Assembly: GCA_964016885.1 (NCBI GenBank)
Contig: OZ024747.1
Coordinates: forward strand, 84,692,001 to 84,756,000
Origin: Eledone cirrhosa
Lineage: Eukaryota
Length of the DNA stretch: 64,000 nt
Reading direction: 5' to 3'
A program made the translations under genes and the position numbers. This document shows positions 8,431 through 63,184 of this stretch, in pieces (position 1 is the first letter of the stretch; each line of letters starts with the position of its first letter). The notes beneath the pieces are model-generated. The model searched no databases. It was not told the origin of the DNA and was given only the letters and a program-made list of their open reading frames with translations.

Positions 8431-11400
8431 GCACGGCACAGTCTCCTCTGACCCTCCCTAATAACCGTGTGTTTTTCATCACAGACACTGAGTCGCAAGC
8501 ACGTTGTCTGATCGACACCGGCGCGGCTTGTAGCATTTGGCCGCTAAAACTTCTCAAAGAGAAGCCCCAACTCTCAACCATCTCTCTGCAAGCAGTAAAC
8601 CAGTCACCGATCCCCACGTACGGTCAGATTTCTCGTTCTTTGAACCTGGAATAGCCTAGAGATTTCACGTGGATCTTCACTGTTGCTGATCTGCCTTACC
8701 CCATCCTAGGCTCAGATTTCCTGCACCACTATAACTTGATAGTGGATATGCGCAGACGCCGGTTGTTGGATGCCAACACAGAACTGTCTGTGCCGGGTAC
8801 CAGATCGACTGTCTCGTCGGTCAGCCCGGTCTTCTTTATCGCTGCTACAGAAGATCCTTACCAATCACTTTTGCATTCCTTCCCGGAATTAACAAATTTG
8901 AATTTTGTGATGAGTGAGCCTACTCACTCCACCAAGCACCACATTGAAACATCCGGAGCTCCTGTGTTTTCGCGCCCTCGCCGTCTCTCTGCTGAGAAAC
9001 TGAAGGCCGCAAGGGCTGAATTCAATCACATGCTGCAGCTCGGGATCATTCGCCCATCCTCAAGCCCGTGGGCCGCACCCTTGCATTTGGTACCAAAGCG
9101 TTCCGGTGATTGGCGTCCCACTGGGGACTTTCGCCGGTTAAATGCAATGACGGTACCCGACCGCTACCCGATACCACACATACAGGATTTTGCATCTTCG
9201 CTGCATGGATGCAACATATTCTCCAAATTGGATTTGGTCAAAGCATACCACCAAATCCCGGTGAACCCGGCAGACATACCTAAAACTGCAGTAACAACTC
9301 CATTTGGAGCGTTTGAATTTTTGACCATGCCTTTCGGTTTGCGAAACGCAGCCAGCACGTTCCAACGATTTATGGATGAGGTTGTGCGCGATTTAGACTT
9401 CGTGTACAACTACATCGACGACATTCTTGTGGCAAGTGCCTCACCTGAGGAACATGTCAATCACCTCCGTCTCCTGTTCGAGAGATTTCAAAAATACCAA
9501 GTGAGAATTAATCCGGCAAAATGTGTTTTCGGTGCTTCCTCGCTTGTCTTCTTGGGCCATGTCATCAGCCCAGAAGGAATTTCGCCACTACCTGATAAAG
9601 TGAAAGCGGTACAAGACCTCCAACCACCCACTTCACTTCGTCAACTACGACATTTCCTTGGGCTACTGAACTATTACAGGCGCTTTATCCCACACTGTGC
9701 GGATCTCCTGTCTCCTCTGTCCGACCTGTTACGTAACAGGAAAAAGAAGAACGATTCCATTTCATTGGACACGAATCAGCTAAAAGCCTTCGACGAAGTG
9801 AAGCGGAAGCTTGCGGAGACATCACTGCTTGCACATCCTGTGTCTGGTGCCCAGTTTTCACTGGTTGTTGATGCATCAGGCACAGCTGTAGGTGCAGTAC
9901 TGCAACAACATCACCAACAACAGTTACAACCTCTTGCCTACTTTTCTAAACAGCTGAAGCCTGCAGAAACACGGTATAGCACATTCGGCCGTGAACTCTT
10001 GGCTATGTACCTTGCAGTGAAACACTTTCGGCATTCACTGGAGGGTCGCCAATTTGTTATATACACTGACCACCGTCCGCTTACGTTCGCACTGCGTTCT
10101 AAGCCGGACAAATATTCACCTCGCGAAACTCGCCACTTGGACTTCGTTTCGCAATTTACCAGCGATATCCGACACATCTCTGGTGAGCAGAATGCGGCGG
10201 CAGATGCACTGTCTCGCCTCCCAATTAATTCCCTGTCATCGCCAGCGGAAATCGACCTCCAACGAATGGCCACAGAACAACCACCTCTGGATACTTTGGA
10301 CCTCTCGTCTTCTGAATTTGCAACTGGCAAATTTGCATATCTGCCTGTGCCCACTTCGGACACACAGATTATCTGCGACACCTCGACAGATGCACCTCGC
10401 CCTCTAGTGCCAGTGACTCATCGTCGAGCAGTTTTCGACACCTTGCACGGTCTGGCACACCCTGGAATATCGACCACAGTGAAGCTCATTTCGGCTAGAT
10501 TCTTCTGGCCTAATATGAGGCGTGACATCACTGCCTGGACACGTTCCTGCCTATCCTGCCAAAAGTCAAAGGTGCACAAACACATCCGCGCACCCCTTGG
10601 AACTTTCAGCACTCCAGACGCTAGGTTCAGCCATGTCCATATAGATCTTGTCGGACCATGGCCGGTCAGCCGAGGATTTACATACCTCCTGACCTGCATA
10701 GATCGCTTCACACGTTGGCCTGAGGCCATTCCTTTAAGTGACATTTCGGCGGAATCTGTAGCGCGAGCCCTAGTATCGGGTTGGATATCGCGTTACGGAG
10801 TTCCAGCCACTATCACCACTGACCGCGGTGGACAATTTGAGTCACACCTTTTCCGAGAGCTTTCAAGGATCCTGGGAATGCAACGCATTCGAACGACCAG
10901 CTACCATCCAGCTTCTAACGGAATGATTGAACGCTTCCACCGCCAATTGAAAGCCGCACTGCGCGCTTATCCGGATCAGCAGCGGTGGAGCGAATATGTA
11001 CCAATTGTCCTCCTGGGCTGTCGTGCAGCCATCAAGGAAGATCTAGGCTACTCCCCCGCCGAGTTGGTTTACGGAGTGCCTATATCTCTGCCTGGTCAGA
11101 TGTTAGCTCCATTGGACCTACCAGCAACAGACCCAGCTCTGTATGTGAGCAGACTGCAATCATATTTCAGCAATCTTCCGCCTATGCACCCTCGCCAACA
11201 GACAATCAAATCTTCGGTCCCGAAAGACATTGCTTCATGGACCCACGTCTTTTTACGAAAGGACGCCGTGAGAGCTCCTCTCATGCCACCTTATACCGGT
11301 CCCTATCGCGTGCTTGAGCGCACAGATAAGCTATTCACCCTAGACATTGGGGGTAAAAAAGAGACTGTGTCCATTGACAGGGTAAAACGGGCCTATACAG

Positions 11401-11567
11401 ACACTCTCACACAAGAGCCCCATTTTCCCCCCACATACACCTGGCATCAGCCAAGCCACAATACACATATAACATCGCACACACCTACACCTACATATGT
11501 CACCACCACACGTAGCGGTCGGCGGGTACATTGGCCCAAGAAGCTTTGCAAGACTCTTTATATATGA
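8406..11567 (+). pseudogene. pol: Gypsy pol polyprotein (protease, RT, RNase H, integrase) with one in-frame TAG at 8652-8654
   Basis: LIDTGA protease; [11 protein letters not shown]; VDASG and RELLA RNase H; H-H-C-C zinc finger; HIDLVGP, TDRGGQF and NGMIERFHR integrase; PYTGPY. ORFs 8388 and 8736 are in the same frame. Confidence 0.95.
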
Positions 11568-26303: not shown

Positions 26304-26599
26304 GACAGCATTTTACACGTTTTTATTGTATGTAAACTTCCCCCTTTGTATTTGTCCCCTTCTTTTGTGCCCCTGTGGCTAATAAAGAAACATCTCTCTC
26401 TCTCTCTGTATATATATATATATATATATATACGTTTGTCGGCAATAAACTTGTTATAATGTCATAATAGTTCCTTTGTTCTTTTTCACTAATAATTCTG
26501 CTCTGCTTACACGCATAGAGCTTAACTAGCTACCGTCACATATTTGGTAGGTCAGACGTGATCATCGCGATTCACATACGACCTACCATACATCTTGCT

Positions 26600-26630
<31 letters not shown>

Positions 26631-26764
26631 TACTAGGGAGAGGATCAGGGGTGTATAACACTCCACTTATCCAGCAGGCAGTATAAGGTTAGCTCGATGT
26701 CTGAGGACAGAGCCGTGATATAATAAATAACAAAGAACGCCTATAGCATATGCATATCTTTACT

Positions 26765-26810
26765 TGCTAACATTGTTTCATCCGCACTATAAGTGGGACT
26801 CATCAGAGCA
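26765..26810 (-). ncRNA. Type I hammerhead ribozyme motif (mirror of 29559-29604)
   Basis: Reverse complement: TGCT CTGATGA GTCCCAC TTATA GTGCGGAT GAAAC AAT GTT AGCA. Confidence 0.7.
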
Positions 26811-27425
26811 TAAAGGTTAATTACATACCACACAAGCAATAACAAATCCAAGACATTGAAGAATGAAAAATAATAGAAGATAAAGGATATTAAGGAAGTA
26901 AAAGTAAAAATAAGAATAAAAATAAAAATAAAAATAAAAATAAAAATAAAAATAAAAATAAAAATAAAAATAAAAATAAAAATAAAAATAAAAATAAAAA
27001 TAAAAATAATAAAATAAACAATGAAAAATAAGGGGTGCTATCAGTCACAGTTGGGCGGGGTGCTGTCAACATATAGTTACATACAAGCATACACATGGAT
27101 AAGAGAACAGACAAGAGTAGGTAAGATAGATAGGATTAGGTAAGAGTAGGTAAAAAATAGGTGAAAAACAGACTTATAATATATATAAGAAAATATAAAA
27201 AAATATAAAAAAATATATAACAAACTTACATATAAAATATAAAATATGCAGATAATAGTGATACAGGGTAAGGAATGAAATAAAATAATATAAAATTAAA
27301 ATTAAAATTATATAAAATAGAACATAATATAATATAATCATAAAATAAGATAAAATAAGGTAAACTAAAATAAAATAAAATAGACTAAAGTAAAATAATA
27401 TAATATAAGATATAATTAAATGTAA

Positions 27426-27461
<36 letters not shown>

Positions 27462-27530
27462 AATTAAATAAATAAATAAAATTAATAAATAAAATTAAAA
27501 TTAAAATTAAAATTAAAATTAAAATTAAAA

Positions 27531-27566
<36 letters not shown>

Positions 27567-28895
27567 GTAAATAAATAAATAAATAAATGAAATTAAATTA
27601 ATAAATAAATAAAATTAAATAAAATGAAATGAAATAAAATAAAATGAAATAAAGTAAATTGAGATAAGATATATATTTTTTTAGAATATATTTCTTGAAA
27701 ATATCAGGGGGCCACGAAGGCACTAAGTGTCACAGTCACCAGTATCACTTGACCATTGCAAGGCAATGGAGGCGTCCCAGGTTGGGCAGTCTCAAAAGTT
27801 CACTCGAAAGTCACGGGTGTGCATTCACACAGTTGAGCGGTGGGGTAATCACAAACCGGTTCACACCCGGGCAGGAGTCCAATGGTCAAACAGAGGTGCA
27901 TCGAAGGAAGGTAGGAGAATTCACGTGCAGTAGCAAGCGAGGTGCAGGCGGGTTAGCCAAAGCAAGCAGACACAGTTGGAGCGCATACAAAAGATATATA
28001 AAAAGACAAAAGATATATAAAAAATAGCTTCAAGAGCCATGAAGTCACCGCATTGGGACATCACAAGATTGTACACACCAATATGTTCAGCACGTATATG
28101 CACATATACACACCACATGCATATGCAGAGACGGTATACATATATATATATTTTTTTATATACAGACATATACAACCACCTACACCCATACACATATAAA
28201 TGTATACACAGACACACACGCACACACACACAGCGTAGGACACCCGGGTCAAAGCTGATATTAAACACAGAAATACCACATTAGGCAAGACCCACCACCA
28301 CGGATAATACATTCAAAATAAATACATACGATGAGATGTAGTAAAATAAAATTGAATTCCTACGGAGATAATCATGTCCGCACGTGCCATTGCCCGATTT
28401 AAGTGTACACAGGCCGTTAGTAACTACGGAGGGCTATCGGGGCCAAAACGTTACTTTCGGGATCATAACAACGACCTTCGATGCACCTCTGTTTGACCAT
28501 TGGACTCCTGCCCGGGTGTGAACCGGTTTGTGATTACCCCACCGCTCAACTGTGTGAATGCACACCCGTGACTTTCGAGTGAACTTTTGAGACTGCCCAA
28601 CCTGGGACGCCTCCATTGCCTTGCAATGGTCAAGTGATACTGGTGACTGTGACACTTAGTGCCTTCGTGGGCCCCTGATATTTTCAAGAAATATATTCTA
28701 AAAAAATGGTCAAGTGATACAGATAACTGTGACACTTAGTGCCTTCGTGGGCCCCTGATATATTCAAGAGATATATTCTAAAAAAATATATATCTTATCT
28801 CAATTTACTTTATTTCATTTTATTTTATTTCATTTCCTTTTATTTAATTTTATTTATTTATTTATTTAATTTCATTTATTTATTTATTTATTTAC

Positions 28896-28931
<36 letters not shown>

Positions 28932-29558
28932 TTTTAATTTTAATTTTAATTTAATTTATTTATTTAATTTTATTTATTTATTTATTTATTTATTTGATTA
29001 CATTTAATTATATCTTATATTATATTATTTTACTTTAGTCTATTTTATTTTATTTTAGTTTACCTTATTTTATCTTATTTTATGATTATATTATATTATG
29101 TTCTATTTTATATAATTTTAATTTTAATTTTATATTATTTTATTTCATTCCTTACCCTGTATCACTATTATCTGCATATTTTATATTTTATATGTAAGTT
29201 TGTTATATATTTTTTTATATTTTTTTATATTTTCTTATATATATTATAAGTCTGTTTTTCACCTATTTTTTACCTACTCTTACCTAATCCTATCTATCTT
29301 ACCTACTCTTGTCTGTTCTTTTATCCATGTGTATGCTTGTATGTAACTATATGTTGACAGCACCCCGCCCAACTGTGACTGATAGCACCCCTTATTTTTC
29401 ATTGTTTATTTTATTATTTTTATTTTTATTTTTATTTTTATTTTTATTTTTATTCTTATTTTTACTTTTACTTCCTTAATATCCTTTATCTTCTATTATT
29501 TTTCATTCTTCAATGTCTTGGATTTGTTATTGCTTGTGTGGTATGTAATTAACCTTTA

Positions 29559-29604
29559 TGCTCTGATGAGTCCCACTTATAGTGCGGATGAAACAATGTT
29601 AGCA
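29559..29604 (+). ncRNA. Type I hammerhead ribozyme motif
   Basis: Stem I TGCT/AGCA, core CTGATGA, stem II GTCC-CAC/GTG-C-GGAT, GAAA, short stem III, cleavage triplet GTT. Confidence 0.7.
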
Positions 29605-29643
29605 AGTAAAGATATGCATATGCTATAGGCGTTCTTTGTTATT

Positions 29644-29685
<42 letters not shown>

Positions 29686-29853
29686 CTGAAGACAGCATAT
29701 ATATGTGTAGGTATGTATATTCCCTCTGATAGTTTGTAAAATTTTTACATAGATCTATATCATATACATACCAACACACACATATATATCCTAGAAACGA
29801 TCGTAAAATGATCAATTTTTTAATATAAGGAACTGTTTCTTTGTTTTTATCAT

Positions 29854-29951
<98 letters not shown>

Positions 29952-30881
29952 CGAATCTCTTCAGGATGTGTCCCAGCATGGCCGCAGTCTAATGAGCGAA
30001 ATCAATAAAAGAATATACACTCCATCTCAATCCTTTTCTCTCTATCACCCTTTCTTTCTTTCTTTCTCTCTCTTAGTCTATCTCTCTCTTTCTTACTCTC
30101 TCTCTCTCTCTCTGTCTATCACTCTCTCGGTTACCGACTCACATATTTTACACTTCACACTGTCTTTCTCACTCCTCTCAAATATCCACAGTAGCATAGT
30201 TAGAGTTTGCTCCGCCCCGGGGTGGGTCTTCCCTCTCTCGCACTTCCCTCTTACGAACACAATATGCATTAGATTCGCCCTCACTCCTACACAATTTCAT
30301 GGTGGGATGGACCACCCTTTGCACACCCATAGTTACGCTTCTGCTAACATGCATAAACATCTCGGAACACACACACACACACACACGCACAGACACGCAC
30401 AGACGTACACAGACACACGCACGCACACGCAGACACACACAGACACACTCATGCACGCACACACACACACGCGCACACACACAGACACACACATACACAC
30501 ACACACACAGACACACAGAAACACACACACACACAGACACACACAGACACACACACACAGACAGACAGACACACACACACACACACACTTACACACACAC
30601 ACTATTACTTTGAGTGTCATTCACCCTGTTACACTTTCATACTCTTTATTTTTCCCAAAACAGTTTAAATATTAATCTCTCACTCACTTTATTTCATACG
30701 CTTTCACATACATCTCTCTCTCCACCTCATTCCCTCTCTGCTTCTCTCTCATTTAAATACACACACACACACACACACAGGCTGACAGCCACATACACGG
30801 AGACAAACATACGCACACTTTCTCCCTCTCTCCCCCACTCTCTCTTCCTCTCCCCCTCTCCCTCTCCCCCCTCTCTCTCAC

Positions 30882-30995: not shown

Positions 30996-31138
30996 ATGGA
31001 TTATGAAGAAGTGATTGGAAAGATTGGTGGATGTGGACTTTATCAGAAACTCATGCTAGCCTATTTGTTTTCCGCCACTATTATGGATGGTTTACAAGTT
31101 GGTAGCATAGTTTTTCTGGTACCTGACTTGGATTACAG
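30996..31138 (+). CDS. SLC22 / organic cation transporter-like (MFS) gene, coding exon 1
   Basis: Kozak GCCATGG; MDYEEVIGKIGGCGLYQKLML...VFLVPDLDYR, the typical SLC22 N-terminal G-x-x-G-x-Y-Q; donor AG|GTAGGT, phase 2. Confidence 0.9.
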
Positions 31139-31521: not shown

Positions 31522-31951
31522 GTTGTCGTCTGTTCGATAGCGTAGACGTAATTCACTTCGCGCAGAAGTTTTGTTCCAATTTATTGCGGAAATTTTGTAA
31601 GTTTAATTTTAATTTTGATACTATTGTGTAGCTTGACCCCCCGTCTGAACTGTCAGGCGGTGCGTCAGCTCATTTTCGCCCCTCCCAGGGGTGAAAAACC
31701 TGTTTTAAAAAATTTTGTTGCATAAAATTTCAATCGTCTGGGAGAAATGTTAAACGAAGCTAACGAAAATAGTGGTGGGGGGGGGGGGGACAGCGGTAAG
31801 AGTTGTAAGCTCGCACGCTTTAGTCCCCCCCTTCCTTCCCAACTAACGTCATAGAGAAGGAAAGAAAAAATAAAATAAAAACAGACGAATGTGCGGAGAA
31901 AAATGTCGACGAAAACACAAATCTGGAGATTGATTCCAACAACAAAAAAAT

Positions 31952-32998
31952 ATGAAAGAATTGCATGACAATATTAATACCACAAACAAAGAAACAACAA
32001 ACACAAAAATAACATTTGAAAACAACAACATCATAACAGAAAGCAAAACAGACGACAAAGTCAACACCAATAACATCTCATTTGCACAAACAACAAAAAA
32101 ATCTTTAACATACATACCTGAAAATATTTCAGATGTGGCACAAAGAATAAAAAACGCCAAACAATTCATAACTCAAGAGGAAAATGGAGCCTTGTCAGTA
32201 AAAATGCCCCAAGAACTCACCAAAGATATTAAAAGTCGGACGGTCGTTTTCCGCACCATCAACAACATCTCAAAAAAGCCACAACAACCAACACAAGCAG
32301 AAATTAAAGCAGTACTTAGAGAAGTACTTAATGAAGCCACTTTCATAAGAAGAGACAGGCTCTATGGAAGCCTGGCCATTATTATGAAGAACGAATCGGC
32401 GGCAAAAAAATATGCTTTGTCACCGATTCGTTCGACAAATTTTACCTTTTATCCATCTTATATGGGTAAAAGAACTCAGCGCATATGGCTGGATGCGATG
32501 ATGCCAGATATGGACTACTGCTGGCTCATAGCTGGCTTCATCGATCCAGCGAATGACAACGTGATTTTCATTGGGAAAAACACAGGCAATGCGTTCAGTG
32601 GAACAGGTATAGAACTTGTAGTGCAAATGAAGCCTGAGCGCATTGCCCAAATACCCGACAGAATCCTATTAGAGGGCCACGGATATATAAACATTAGCGT
32701 GGTGGGGAGAAGGCCGTCCTGTCATATCTGTGCAGGCAGAGGGCACCCGAAGGCGGCTTGTCCCCAACTCAACAAGAAGAAAACCCTGCTACCAACACCA
32801 GCTCCACCACCACCACAACAGATAAACAAACAACAAAACTCAGTCCCACCTAACCCGTCCCTCAGTAAAACTACAGCACCACCACAGCACAAACAGACAC
32901 AACACATTACCCCAAAACAAAACAAGTCCCACCCAACCCCTCACTCAATAAAACAACACAACCACCGCAGCCATAACACACAACACAGTCTAACATAG
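31952..32998 (+). pseudogene. LINE ORF1 (gag-like, CCHC knuckle); disrupted, probably spanning about 31747-33661 originally
   Basis: CHICAGRGHPKAAC (C-x2-C-x4-H-x4-C) followed by a Pro/Thr/Gln-rich tail that continues in other frames. Confidence 0.8.
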
Positions 32999-33694
32999 TG
33001 ACATCCATCTCCCCCACAAAGAAAACTAACACGGAAACATTACCAGCAAACATACCTCTTCCCTCCAACACTGAAGATAACCCAACGAATTCGGAGGAAG
33101 AAACGGAGTCCTTCAGACAGATTAAAAGGAAAAAAGAAAACATGTGCAAAACACACAAGGCCAAACAGCCCCTACCCAAATGTCAACACAATCCAACAAA
33201 ACACAAAACACCCCTCCAGCAACAAACCAAACCAAACCTGCCCCTCCCCTCTTCGAAACACTCACACCATCCGAAAAAAGACATTACACTATACTTACAT
33301 CAACAGAAACAATAATAAATTAAATGAACTCATAAACAATAACCCTTCGGTACAAACCAAAGGGGTAACTTTGTTTCTTCAGAAAACTACCCACATTTAA
33401 AATTAATAAAGATCCCAATGAACCTCTACCAAAAACTAAAAAAAGGATTTTAAGGAGGACGTAGGACCACCCTCTGTCAAACCCATAAACCGCGTCCTCC
33501 TAAAAAGCCTTCCCCCTCCCCTTCCCCTCCCCAACACAACTCCAAATACCCCAACCCCACCACACACTGACGACCCCACACCACCACAAGACACCCCTTC
33601 ACCCAACACCCCCGACCCCATGGAAGTCGTGCAACCCGAACCCCGGGAAGCAGAAAGGTAGGTCTCTACACTCTCTTTTGGCTTTGCCGCCCAC

Positions 33695-36600
33695 ATGGAT
33701 GTGTTAAGAGTAGGATGTTTGAATGCACGTGGCCTGGGCTCAACTTGGAAGTAAGCAAAGCTTCTAAATGACCTCAGGTCACGTGGTATAAATGTAATGG
33801 TTATCTGTGAGACTCGGATCAGCGTCGTGCGGAAGCTGGCCCCTACCTTCGATGACTTTGAGGTGCACGCATCTCTCTGTCAACCTGGAGGTGGTGGTGG
33901 GGTTGTCGTACTGCTGGAAAAACACCTGGGTCTCGCCGTACAGGTTGTTCACTCGGACCCGGAAGGTCGTTTGTTGGTGCTAGACGTTGGCAGTAGTGGA
34001 GGTGCGGCCTTGAGACTGGTCGCCGTCTACTCCCCTTTCGGAGCTGAACGACCCGACTTCTTCCAGCGTCTGGAGACTTTTCTGGGAACGTCGCGTTCCC
34101 TGCTTCTAGCGGGGGACTGAAATGACATCCTAGATGCACGTTGGGACTATGCAGGAGCATGTCCTAATAGAGGGGGGTGTAACAGCCTCAAGGGGTTACT
34201 CGACCGTTTTAACTTGGTCGATAGATATCGACTAGATTTTCCAACTGTGCCAACCTGGACTTGGACGAACCACAGTGGTCAATCTAGATCGTACTCAGAT
34301 AGATTCTTAGTTAGAAGTAAGGATAGGGACATATTAAGCTGTCCAGAAATGCTCACGGTTGGCTATACAGATTACAAATTAGTGACCTGCGTAGTCAACC
34401 TCGAGAGAACACATAGACAGGGTCCCGGTTACTGGAAACTTAATTTGTCTTTACCGGCAAAAGAGGCTTACAGAGACCGGATTAGCAGATTAGTTAAGGA
34501 GAGGTTGACGGGTGCAATCGTCAACAACCGATGGTGGGCATCTCTCAAAAGAGAGATTAGAACAGAATCAATAAGTTATAGCAAGATGTTAGCTGCCGAT
34601 AGGAATAGGAACGAGAAAGAATTAACAGGTAAATTAGAAGAGGCAATCAAGAGCGAAGATGTGGCCAGAGTGCTAGCATCGAGGACGGCCTTGAGCCAGT
34701 TTTTCGATGCAAAGCACGAAGGCTGCGTCATTCGAAGTAAAATACGTGCTCTAGGTAATGAGGGGGCCAAAGCCGTTGGCTGGGCCCGCGTGACAGAAGC
34801 TAATAGTGGAAATCGATCCACCATCCGGTCTTTGCAAAACGAGGATGGACGGGTGATCCGGGAGCCTAAGCAGATGTGCGAGGCCTTTCAAAAGAACTTT
34901 GCCCGATTGTTCGGGGGAGACGAGGGTCCGGGCGGGGACGTGGATTTCGGTCCATACCTCGACGGCCTGCCGCGTCTCTCAAGCGAAGAGGCAGAGTCCT
35001 GCGAGGGACCAATCTCGGCTGATGAGATCGGGGATGCGCTGAGCCAATGCAGCAGACGCAAATCTCCAGGTCTCGATGGTATACCTTACGAACTTTATTT
35101 AGCAATGCCGGTCTTCTTCTCCGAACTCCTCGAAGCAGTCTACTGCAATTGGCAGCAGAACGGGAGAATTCCTTGTTCTGTAGCCAAGGGCGTAGTCTCG
35201 CTGGTGAGGAAGGACGAGAACAAGGGGGATAGTATAAATAATTTTCGGCCCATAACCCTGCTAAACACAGAGTTAGAGATTTTGGCCAAGGTGTTAGCAA
35301 AGAGGTTGGCGCTTGTCGTGGGTAGCTTGGTGGGAGATGCGCAGACATGTGCTATCCCATCCAGGTCCATTCACGACAACCTCCACCTCATGCGATACAT
35401 CATAGAGAGGGTTGGCAACAAACCCGGCTTCGGTGGGGCCCTGATCAACTTGGATCAGTCTAAGGCGTTCGATAGGGTCGACCATGGTTACCTGGATGCG
35501 GTGCTAGCGGCGGCTGGGTTCGGTCCTGTTTTCAGAGGCTGGATCACTGCCTTACATAGCAACCACATCTGTTCTAGGATCAAGGTAAACGGCTACCTTT
35601 CGAAGCCGTTCGAAATCACACGATTCATTCGACAGGGGTGCCCTCTCTCCTCCCTTCTGTACGTATTGACTCTCGAGCCTTTACTGAGGAAGTTGGAGTT
35701 GTGGCAGGGTATCCCCCTGGAACCAGGATTGAGCAAAGCAGTGTCGGCCTACGCCGATGACGTAACAGTAATGGTATCGACCGACTCGGAGATCGAGGCG
35801 ATCGGTACCTTACTGGAGGAATACGAAAGGTTGTCAGGAGCGAAACTGAACCGGGAAAAATCCATCGGGCTGCAACTCGGAACGTGGAGAGGCAGACCAA
35901 TGCCTCCCGACGGTGTCGTCGGACACTGGACGGAGGGCCCGGTGAAGTTGCTTGGGGTCTGGTTTGGACCGGACCTCCAGATGGAAAAGAACTGGGGCGA
36001 GGTTACGAACAAGGTGTTTGCACTGACCCAGAAATGGGCCAAGTGTAAGCTGTCCCTGAAAGGTCGGGCGGAGGTGGCGAACATTTACATAGCGTCTGTC
36101 ACCTACTACCGCCTGACTGTCGTGCCTTGCCCTAAGGAAACACTCACCACCATGGAACGTATGCTCTTTCAATTTCTTTGGAAGAAGCGCCCTTCTATGG
36201 TGAGAAGATCCATCTGCTGCCAACAACCTTCGAAAGGAGGGCTGGGGATGCCGTGGTTGATGATGCGTAGGCACGCCGTAAGGCTACGGCACTTACAGGT
36301 ATTCCTCACTGGTCAACCGGTGTGGGCTCCGTTCGTGAGACGAGCCTTTCCGTGACTCGTCTCACTCACCGAGCTGCAGTCCTGGGTCAAGCAAAGATCC
36401 GGAAAACTGGGCGACTGGCACACTGAGTGTGCCCAGGCGCCCAGGGCTCTCTGGCAAGCGGACCCGGCCATCGGTGGAGAATCCACCTCGTCATTCTATA
36501 GAGGGCTGGTGGCTAGCAGGGGCGATGACACCCTTGGAAAGTCGCTGAACATGGAAGAGGACGAACTGGCCAGCCTGTTCAGTAGGACTTTCGGCTCGGG

Positions 36601-37132
36601 ACCAATGGACAACTTCCAGAAGTCACTGGCCTGGCAGTGCTACCGGGGGGATCTACCCGTTCGAGAAAAGCTCTACAGGCACGGGCGCCCGGGCCTGGAT
36701 CCCTCGAAAAAGATTTGCCCTAGATGCGTGCGTCACGAAGAAACCGTTGCGCACGCATTGGTGCACTGTCCGGGCGTGGCTGATCTGTGGGGCTACGCCG
36801 AACGACTGCTGTCGCGGGTGGCGCCGATTCGATTGACCGCCGAGTCCGTGATGACAATCAAACCGCCTCCCCTCTTCACAAAGGAAGCAAAGGCGGTTTT
36901 TCTGTGCGTAATAGCCATGTTGAAAGAGGTTGTTTGGTGGACACGATTGAAAGGTCTGAGGTCAGGCAACTTCCTCTCTGGCCATAGTCTGGTCTACTTC
37001 TTCCGATATCACTTCGGAAGAAGGATAAGAATGGAGAGAGAGGTGCTTGGCCACAGGCAGTTTTATGAAAGGTGGGTGATAGTGGCGAGAATGGCTCGTG
37101 TAAATGGGCCTTCTCTGTATACCATCCTGTAG
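33695..37132 (+). pseudogene. LINE ORF2 (AP endonuclease, reverse transcriptase, C-terminal zinc finger); one frame with three nonsense codons (33752, 34118, 36353)
   Basis: MDVLRVGCLNARGL, ICET, LAGD*N, GPGYWKLN, KSPGLDG, FRPITLLN, DQSKAFDRV, RQGCPLS, YADD, CPRC...HALVHC. ORFs 33797, 34214 and 36509 share one frame. Confidence 0.93.
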
Positions 37133-56999: not shown

Positions 57000-57041
<42 letters not shown>

Positions 57042-57044
57042 GAT

Positions 57045-57204
57045 ATGTTTATCCCGGGTTCAATCGGTACTCAATACAAAGCAGAGTATAAATATTTAAT
57101 ATAGAAAAGGCTTCTACAGAACTAGAACTTTTTCATTCGGGAGAAATCATCAGGAAGCCCTGATGATTTCTCCCGAATGAAACAGTTCTAGTCCTGCAGA
57201 AGCC

Positions 57205-57212
<8 letters not shown>
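57045..57212. mobile_element. Small fold-back element with a hammerhead-like core; family also at 43195-43325
   Basis: GGCTTCTACAG..ACTAGAACT..TTCATTCGGGAGAAATCATCAGG aagc CCTGATGATTTCTCCCGAATGAAACAGTTCTAGTCCTGCAGAAGCC. Confidence 0.75.
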
Positions 57213-57582: not shown

Positions 57583-57791
57583 ATATATGATGGATGACTA
57601 GCGTCCGAAAAGTTAAGACCCTCTTCCTGCTATATCAAGCGTTAACCTAATATATCCCTTCCATATACTGTACCGATTGTGTTGTTATTTCTGTTTACCT
57701 TTTACATATGTATATACATATATATGTGGGGGGGGGGGTAATGTTTGATATATATATATATATATGAACAATGTTTGAAATATTTTGTTAG

Positions 57792-61151: not shown

Positions 61152-61156
<5 letters not shown>

Positions 61157-61561
61157 GGAGGTGAGTTTTATTGTAGTACAATAAAGCAATGCAGATATCG
61201 GATAAGAAGCACTCTACAGTTTGTAGGACTGGAGTATACATAATATAAGATCAAAAGATGGTTAAAGGAGTTCCATGTATTTTATTATGCGCATTTCAAA
61301 AACAAACATCATCATGCAATAATATTTGTGTTTTCATCAGATAAAACAGGAGAACATGATATGAAGGCTAAAAAACACTTGTGGATAGTGCAGTTGATAG
61401 TATGTTGATTTAAAACTGCACTATCCACAAGTGTTTTTTAGCCTTCATATCATGTTCTCCTGTTTTATCTGATGAAAACACAAATATTATTGCATGATGA
61501 TGTTTGTTTTTGAAATGCGCATAATAAAATACATGGAACTCCTTTAACCATCTTTTGATCT

Positions 61562-61569
<8 letters not shown>
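61152..61569. mobile_element. Hammerhead-bearing fold-back element between (TA)n arrays; single-arm copy at 62932-63185
   Basis: Arms 61240-61395 and 61414-61569 are reverse complements; a closely similar direct copy lies 1.78 kb downstream. Confidence 0.88.
61463..61529 (+). ncRNA. Type I hammerhead ribozyme motif (mirror copies on minus at about 61281-61347 and 63062-63128)
   Basis: TTTTAT CTGATGA AAACACAAATAT...ATGTTTGTTTTT GAAAT GCGC ATA ATAAAA; 6-bp stem I, long stem II, palindromic stem III ATGCGCAT. Confidence 0.75.
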
Positions 61570-61620
<51 letters not shown>

Positions 61621-62798: not shown

Positions 62799-63184
62799 CG
62801 GAAACTTGACGTGTTTATATGACTATATAATCAATGTGTATATTTAAATGCAAATTTACGCTGGTGCTGCTAACTTTGTACCAAATGTGTACAGATATGA
62901 ATCTATTATATATATATATATATATATATATGTGTAGGAGGTGAGTTTTATTGTAGTACAATAAAGCAATGCAGATATCGGATAAGAAGCACTCTACAGT
63001 TTGTAGGACTGGAGTATACATAATATATAAGAACAAAAGATGGTTAAAAGAGTTCCATGTATTTTATTATGCGCATTTCAAAAACAAATATCATCATCCA
63101 ATAATATTTGTGTTTTCATCAGATAAAACAGGAAGACATGATATGAAGGTTAAAAAACACTTGTGGATAGTGCAGTTTTAAATC

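What the first reader, a model, noticed from the sequence alone, without database searches (positions are those of the whole stretch)
26718..29651. 2.9-kb quasi-palindrome with mirror hammerheads, 1.3 kb upstream of the SLC22 start codon
Seen: ~1.2-kb inverted arms that differ mainly in simple-repeat lengths and in an ~80-bp duplication (28625-28787) present only in the right arm. Outward-reading hammerheads lie at 26765 (-) and 29559 (+). Inference: a Penelope-like 3' fragment with an inverted pLTR. A read-through transcript would form more than 1 kb of dsRNA (an ADAR or siRNA substrate) or be cut just upstream of the gene, and the DNA could fold back on itself.
Basis: partly seen in the sequence, partly recalled or inferred. 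Interest (0 to 1): 0.7.

Follow-up and report, generated by a model that had tools for sequence, protein, structure and literature searches.

The report
Head-to-head Penelope retrotransposon stub pair
This mirror-image stretch is a recent insertion of two cut-short ends of a very common Penelope-type jumping gene, joined head to head in a TA repeat of an octopus-like genome; the layout is known, it likely forms when both ends of the cut DNA are copied from the element's RNA, and nothing here shows an effect on the neighbouring transporter gene.

Summary
The palindrome is real (1,091 matches, 6 mismatches). It is two 5'-truncated 3'-UTR fragments of a young, high-copy Penelope-like element (PLE). 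Intact copies elsewhere carry an 844-residue frame with a telomerase-like fold and Hydra-clade motifs; the window holds no coding sequence. Inverted arms with one tailed end are textbook PLE architecture. In 37 of 38 head-to-head units exactly one end was tailed, and the arms shared alleles (4 of 279 common-SNP sites discordant, 101 expected), which favours priming from both cut ends on one template lineage. An assembly fold-back is unlikely, though no read across the junction was seen. A read-through RNA would be double-stranded, but that is predicted to bury the hammerhead, so cleavage is unlikely; no RNA data were found. The SLC22 start codon 1,345 nt away is confirmed; a regulatory link is untested. 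The scan has noted the same layout and mechanism on other DNA of this genome. Verdict: ordinary.

The parts
26600..26627 (.). (TA)n target, left half
   Evidence: sequence; TRF
26625..26717 (-).
   Evidence: (U4955-5047 of reference copy L026)
26718..28476 (-). Left (long) arm: 5'-truncated 3'-UTR fragment, U3175-4954; 26718-27907 is the part mirrored by the right arm
26765..26810 (-). Type I hammerhead motif, left copy; predicted cut site after 26769
   Evidence: no Rfam hit
27675..27757 (-). Single 80-bp unit: the left arm has lost one of the family's two units
27908..28474 (-). Unpaired spacer: element 3' UTR reached only by the left arm
28475..28476 (.). Head-to-head junction, 2-nt overlap shared by both arms
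28475..29651 (+). Right (short) arm: 5'-truncated 3'-UTR fragment, U3762-4954, no tail
28625..28787 (+). 80-bp tandem duplication, the family state
29559..29604 (+). Type I hammerhead motif, right copy; GUU triplet, 2-bp helix III, near-palindromic loop; predicted cut site after 29600
29647..29683 (.). (TA)n target, right half
30996..31138 (+). Neighbour, not part of the element: first coding exon of an SLC22 (organic cation transporter-like) gene

Best explanation
The stretch 26625-29651 is one recent insertion of a high-copy Penelope-like retrotransposon with Hydra-clade motifs, made of two 5'-truncated 3' ends joined head to head inside a (TA)n microsatellite, likely formed when both ends of the cut target were extended on the element's RNA. 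Shown: identity of both arms and spacer with the family's 3' UTR; (TA)n on both sides; one tailed and one untailed end; shared alleles between arms; 2-nt junction overlap. Inferred: the GIY-YIG endonuclease cuts both strands in (TA)n; the two 3'-OH ends prime reverse transcription at two TA-rich start sites 93 nt apart on the same RNA (or on sister RNAs in one complex); both cDNAs stop early, after about 1.85 and 1.18 kb; end joining fuses them; the left arm later lost one 80-bp unit and the simple repeats drifted. The copy codes for nothing and is most likely neutral or slightly harmful.
For: Family: 1,005, 792 and 1,556 first-look candidates for three probes, best 40 of each at 96-100% identity. 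Intact copy L026: 4,954-bp unit, 844-residue frame, partial-tandem pLTR; predicted fold ranks telomerase RTs first (3 of top 3, E 6e-9). 111 of 114 terminal 3' ends are followed by a TA-rich 12-mer (the first bases belong to the element, so this is slightly inflated). One-tail rule: 23 of 23 units in the first set, two partners predicted before fetching (L075, L076), one tail-only stub (L031), and 11 of 12 in a held-out set: 37 of 38. Tail on the shorter arm in 13 of 34 scored units, which copying back of the long arm cannot give. Arms discordant at 4 of 279 common-SNP sites against 100.9 expected; the window's arms share two alleles seen in no other of 76 copies. In vitro, a Poseidon PLE cuts and extends both strands, starts at two sites that bound the tail, and is predicted to be a dimer (PMC11167929, parts 1-2 of 4 read).
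Against: One held-out unit (L100) has tails on both arms and no spacer. At this locus the tail is on the long arm, so fold-back is not excluded here. Shared alleles also fit RNAs from one donor locus or later gene conversion. Large central deletions could turn fold-back products into short-tailed ones. PMC11167929 saw no difference in start site between strands and no homology of start site to target, whereas here both start sites resemble (TA)n. Pfam (3 of 3 frames) and NCBIfam gave no hit for the family protein. No read or contig across the junction was listed. Junction microhomology was clean in only 11 of 36 units, blunt in 1; the other 24 are fills or unresolved because SNPs disturb the method.
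Confidence: 0.8

Rival explanations
1. Same element, but the inverted arm comes from fold-back: one cDNA (or an antisense RNA, as proposed for rotifer Penelopes) self-primes and copies itself back, and the copy is joined to the other target end at the TA-rich site before the tail.
For: Explains allele sharing and tail on the longer arm in 21 of 34 units, this locus included. L100 is a spacer-less palindrome centred on a short self-complementary word. Self-priming on an antisense template is proposed in PMC3846280 (passages read).
Against: In 13 of 34 units the shorter arm carries a tail that the longer arm lacks, for example a 75-nt tail-only arm in L031 and a 342-nt arm beside a full-length copy in L112. 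Here the short arm has two 80-bp units and the long arm one, so a later deletion is also needed.
Confidence: 0.2
2. The insertion regulates the SLC22 gene: by dsRNA and editing or siRNA, by ribozyme cleavage of a read-through RNA, or, more plausibly, because the right pLTR acts as an outward promoter aimed at the gene.
For: A read-through RNA is predicted to form 1,093 arm-to-arm pairs. The right arm points at the ATG 1,345 nt away. The Drosophila Penelope pLTR can drive downstream transcription (PMC2377424, abstract and Discussion read).
Against: The catalytic fold (-8.0 kcal/mol) is weaker than the local alternative (-13.4) and far weaker than the arm duplex (-121). Such hammerheads work as dimers and cleave poorly (PMC4209133, passages), and the two copies lie on opposite strands. 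Helix II closes with G-U and the triplet is GUU. The right arm lacks the tail. Single-copy DNA at 30125-30365, a possible native promoter region, lies between element and gene. The insertion is young and sits among other high-copy repeats. Private substitutions in 136 arms show no A>G excess (39 A>G, 48 T>C, equal rates).
Confidence: 0.07
3. Assembly fold-back artefact: one arm duplicated in reverse by chimeric reads.
For: No listed contig bridged the junction in 4 runs (196 pieces were not shown, and contigs of a high-copy repeat are short).
Against: Arms differ by 6 substitutions and 4 indels, end at different element sites and have different flanks; the same asymmetric layout recurs at 36 other loci with other breakpoints.
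Confidence: 0.03

Closest known systems
Hydra clade of C-terminal EN+ Penelope-like elements (Craig et al. 2021, PMC8557442; section 11 and passages read)
   Same: Single ORF with DKT, CxCx5C linker, CxxC and CxH motifs, C-terminal GIY-YIG-type core, hammerhead in the pLTR, insertion into (TA)n, molluscan host.
   Different: Unit is 4,954 bp, not under 3 kb, because of a 2.3-kb simple-repeat-rich 3' UTR; RWR in place of RWK; a disordered insert of about 100 residues between RT and EN. No tree with reference Hydra proteins was built.
PLE insertion with inverted 5'-truncated copy and optional tail (PMC8557442 fig. 2 legend; Adineta Pen2a, PMC3846280)
   Same: Head-to-head inverted copy at the 5' end, tail on one end only, short junction overlap.
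   Different: Tail is 93 nt, not 30-40; arms exceed 1 kb because the 3' UTR is long; target-site duplication cannot be read in (TA)n.
Anolis Poseidon (PAc) in vitro mechanism (PMC11167929)
   Same: Two start sites that bound the tail, downstream of the hammerhead; AT-rich target; both strands extended.
   Different: Other clade; there the hammerhead overlaps the ORF start and the start sites are AC-rich and unlike the target; here the motif lies about 250 nt before the first ATG and both start sites resemble (TA)n.
LINE-1 twin priming (recalled, not tested)
   Same: Two primers from one cut, inverted junction with microhomology.
   Different: Twin priming copies non-overlapping parts of the RNA; here both arms copy the same 3' end.

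Membership tests
EN+ Penelope-like elements | Telomerase-like reverse transcriptase in a single ORF | tested here: met
   844-residue frame in L026; model pLDDT 77.7; top three Foldseek hits are TERTs. Not in the window itself.
EN+ Penelope-like elements | C-terminal GIY-YIG endonuclease | tested here: met
   IVY...YIG...R core read in the sequence and conserved in 12 aligned relatives; motif reading only, Pfam gave no hit.
EN+ Penelope-like elements | Partial-tandem pseudo-LTRs of variable length | tested here: met
   L013, L014, L015, L024, L026, L062, L063.
EN+ Penelope-like elements | Hammerhead motif in the pLTR | tested here: met
   Core motif with helices I-III; 98 of 120 matches identical; Rfam blank; cleavage not assayed.
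EN+ Penelope-like elements | Inverted 5'-truncated copy and tail at one end | tested here: met
   37 of 38 units.
EN+ Penelope-like elements | Target-site duplication | not testable with these tools
   Both flanks are (TA)n and no empty allele or paralogous site was found.
EN+ Penelope-like elements | Retained spliceosomal intron (optional) | not tested
   No RNA data.
Hydra clade | DKT in place of DKG; CxCx5C linker; CxxC and CxH around the EN E and N | tested here: met
   DKT, CNCRRASGC, CNLC, CPH in P0001; features from PMC8557442 section 11.
Hydra clade | RWK motif | tested here: inconclusive
   RWR here; among the 12 aligned rows 6 RWK, 5 RWR, 1 RWA.
Hydra clade | Insertion into (TA)n | tested here: met
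   111 of 114 ends.
Hydra clade | Generally shorter than 3 kb (a tendency, not a strict rule) | tested here: not met
   4,954-bp unit.
Hydra clade | Absence of the CCHH motif; phylogenetic placement | not tested
Non-LTR retrozyme (non-autonomous tandem hammerhead repeat) | Short non-coding unit in tandem arrays | tested here: not met
   The family unit is 4.95 kb and codes for RT-EN.
Fold-back or TIR DNA transposon | Fixed terminal inverted repeats shared by all copies | tested here: not met
   Arm lengths and junctions differ at every locus and many copies have one arm only.

The most novel reading that the evidence does not exclude
Penelope-like elements insert by double-ended priming: one dimeric complex holds one RNA and starts the two cut DNA ends at two fixed sites 93 nt apart, so every two-armed insertion has exactly one tail and allele-matched arms. 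This family (37 of 38 units, intact ORFs, over a thousand young copies) would be a ready system to prove how inverted pLTRs arise.
Probability: 0.45. Interest if true: 0.55.

Novelty: new member of a known kind. Interest (0 to 1): 0.22.

Why it matters
The locus itself is ordinary: one of many copies of a known insertion layout. Its value is as data on an open question, how PLEs make inverted pLTRs and tails, which PMC8557442 calls still undefined. The near-strict one-tail rule, the tail on either arm and the allele matching narrow the models and give a clear test. If the host edits RNA heavily, as coleoid cephalopods do (recalled), kilobase inverted repeats from this family could be a general source of dsRNA, but nothing here shows that this copy is transcribed.

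Tried and rejected
Rfam at gathering score: 0 hits. Pfam, NCBIfam and PDB sequence searches with the family protein: nothing significant. tblastn of the family protein against the window: blank. Sequencing runs: no RNA holder listed; contigs of 4 runs laid on 27910-28620 listed no piece across the junction, which proves nothing. Empty-site test through SLC22 paralogues: exon 1 and 30125-30365 each matched only themselves. ADAR footprint in family copies: none. Three truncated partner arms (L017, L021, L046) had no readable 3' end and were left out of the one-tail count; L026 was left out of the long/short count because one arm ran off the locus. Exact junction mapping was unreliable for 24 of 36 units. 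Hammerhead covariation cannot be tested, as copies are nearly identical; MFE z-scores of the motif are null (-0.32 and 0.05). Rejected: DNA fold-back transposon, retrozyme array, gain of the 80-bp unit in the right arm.

Full report
Observation. The inverted repeat is as described. Arms 26718-27907 and 28475-29651 align with 1,091 matches, 6 mismatches and 4 gaps. Identical hammerhead-like cores read outward at 26765-26810 (-) and 29559-29604 (+). Rfam does not call them. The ATG at 30996 opens an exon 81-89% identical to 17 octopus proteins, most named organic cation transporter-like; three further exons map at 57790, 60932 and 63304. The host is thus octopus-like; the genome is 3.0 Gb.

What it is. 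Three probes found 1,005, 792 and 1,556 first-look candidates, the 40 scored of each being 96-100% identical. I examined 78 loci, the window included. Locus L026 holds an intact unit of 4,954 bp: a short leader, an 844-residue open frame (first ATG 15 codons in) and a 2.3-kb 3' UTR with the hammerhead near its end. Profile libraries miss the protein, but it has 1,196 relatives among 7,994 scored candidates, its model ranks telomerase RTs first, and it shows the DKT, CxCx5C, CxxC and CxH motifs and a GIY-YIG-type core listed for the Hydra clade in PMC8557442 (section 11). Clade placement rests on motifs only.

Anatomy of this copy. Against L026 (U coordinates), the left arm with the spacer is U3175-5047 on the minus strand, 28476 down to 26625; the right arm is U3762-4954 on the plus strand. 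Both are 3' UTR; the protein finds no match in the window. Both ends run into (TA)n. The arms overlap by 2 nt at the junction. The 80-bp duplication is present in all but two listed copies, so the left arm lost a unit. The flanks beyond the (TA)n are other high-copy repeats (714 and 1,251 candidates).

Family pattern. Terminal 3' ends fall at one of two sites 93 nt apart and 111 of 114 are followed by TA-rich sequence. In the first 53 loci, 23 head-to-head units had both ends readable and all 23 had exactly one tail. Two missing partners were predicted untailed and were so (L075, L076); L031 has a tail-only inverted stub. In 25 held-out loci chosen on a tailed end, 11 of 12 units had an untailed partner; L100 had two tails and no spacer. 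That is 37 of 38. The tail was on the longer arm in 21 and on the shorter in 13 of 34 scored units. Opposite arms disagreed at 4 of 279 common-SNP sites where 100.9 were expected, and shared 28 locus-private alleles against 77 unshared. The window's arms differ at 1 of 485 non-repetitive sites and share two alleles found in no other of 76 copies. Private substitutions run at 0.32% per site; with the calibration quoted for Octopus vulgaris in PMC13282606 (distance 0.09 at 25 My, passage read) that is roughly 1 My, a borrowed and rough figure.

How it most likely works. The endonuclease cuts both strands in (TA)n; each 3' end primes reverse transcription at one of the two TA-rich start sites; both copies stop early and are joined at their 5' ends. 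These steps are inferred. They fit PMC11167929 (parts 1-2 of 4 read): both strands cut and extended, two start sites bounding the tail, predicted dimer. Against them: that study saw no strand difference in start site, L100 breaks the rule, and allele sharing also fits one donor locus or gene conversion. Fold-back, as proposed in PMC3846280 (passages), is not excluded for this locus but cannot by itself give the 13 units with the tail on the shorter arm. I put the identity at about 0.95 and the double-ended route at about 0.6.

Effect on the gene. A read-through RNA is predicted to form 1,093 arm-to-arm pairs that take up all 68 hammerhead-region bases; the catalytic fold is -8.0 kcal/mol against -121 for the duplex. 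PLE hammerheads of this type need a tandem partner and cleave poorly (PMC4209133, passages); the two here are on opposite strands. Cleavage upstream of the gene is therefore unlikely. An outward pLTR promoter is the more plausible route (PMC2377424, abstract and Discussion), but the right arm lacks the tail and single-copy DNA lies between it and the gene. No transcription start is known and no RNA holder was listed. Family copies show no A>G bias.

Artefact. Unlikely: unequal ends, different flanks, 10 arm differences and 36 similar units elsewhere. Not directly closed: no contig across the junction was listed.

Known or new. [quoted passage not shown] In three search listings on the mechanism and the passages read I saw no count of the one-tail rule or of allele matching, but subscription papers are not held and no supplement was opened. 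The 2026 retrozyme preprint was seen in passages only. Earlier notes of this scan describe the same layout and the two-ended idea in other families of this genome; they are not independent support. Verdict: a new member of a known kind, interest 0.22.

Noticed in passing
window 61154-61570, with a third motif copy near 63122 (-): A second, unrelated head-to-head unit between (TA)n runs, with mirror hammerhead-like cores at 61340 (-) and 61469 (+) and extra sequence on the left end only: the same one-tail layout in another family, inside an SLC22 intron.
   Followed up: partly
window 57039-57207: Small imperfect palindrome between (TA)n runs with hammerhead-like cores at 57153 (-) and 57160 (+).
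   Followed up: partly
window 26437-26600 and 29684-29860: Both flanks are other high-copy young repeats (1,251 and 714 candidates, 98-99% identity), some with their own inverted partners: a nested insertion hot spot.
   Followed up: partly
L100 (G000:C4:9385342-9387784): Spacer-less palindrome with tails on both arms and 8 mismatches in 1,218 nt, centred 3 nt from the element position where the window's right arm starts; the one exception to the one-tail rule.
   Followed up: partly
L026 / L075 (G000:C7:67220638-67232332): Two full-length elements head to head, each with its own partial pLTR, one end tailed and one not: an 11.7-kb quasi-palindrome.
   Followed up: partly
P0001 residues 495-600: Low-confidence Asn/Gly/Ser-rich insert with a 27-residue duplication between RT and endonuclease, absent from most relatives; recalls the N-rich inserts described in rotifer Penelopes (PMC3846280).
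   Followed up: no
window 8655-11567 (+): 970-residue open frame that reads like a Ty3/Gypsy pol (RT, RNase H, integrase motifs by eye).
   Followed up: no
window 31934-37132 (+): L1/Tx1-like LINE in SLC22 intron 1 (intron about 26.6 kb): ORF1-like frame with a zinc knuckle and an endonuclease-RT frame broken by stops, by eye.
   Followed up: no
window 17470 (-), 41789 (+), 47336 (-): Further hammerhead-core-like matches, probably other PLE stubs.
   Followed up: no
runs X5, X6: Two other organisms hold 43-44% of the probe's words; X5 contigs cover 20 of 30 bins at 95% or more, so the family is shared with at least one related species.
   Followed up: partly
family-wide: Private T>G changes outnumber A>C (24 vs 7, p=0.017 uncorrected, one of six tests); probably chance.
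   Followed up: no
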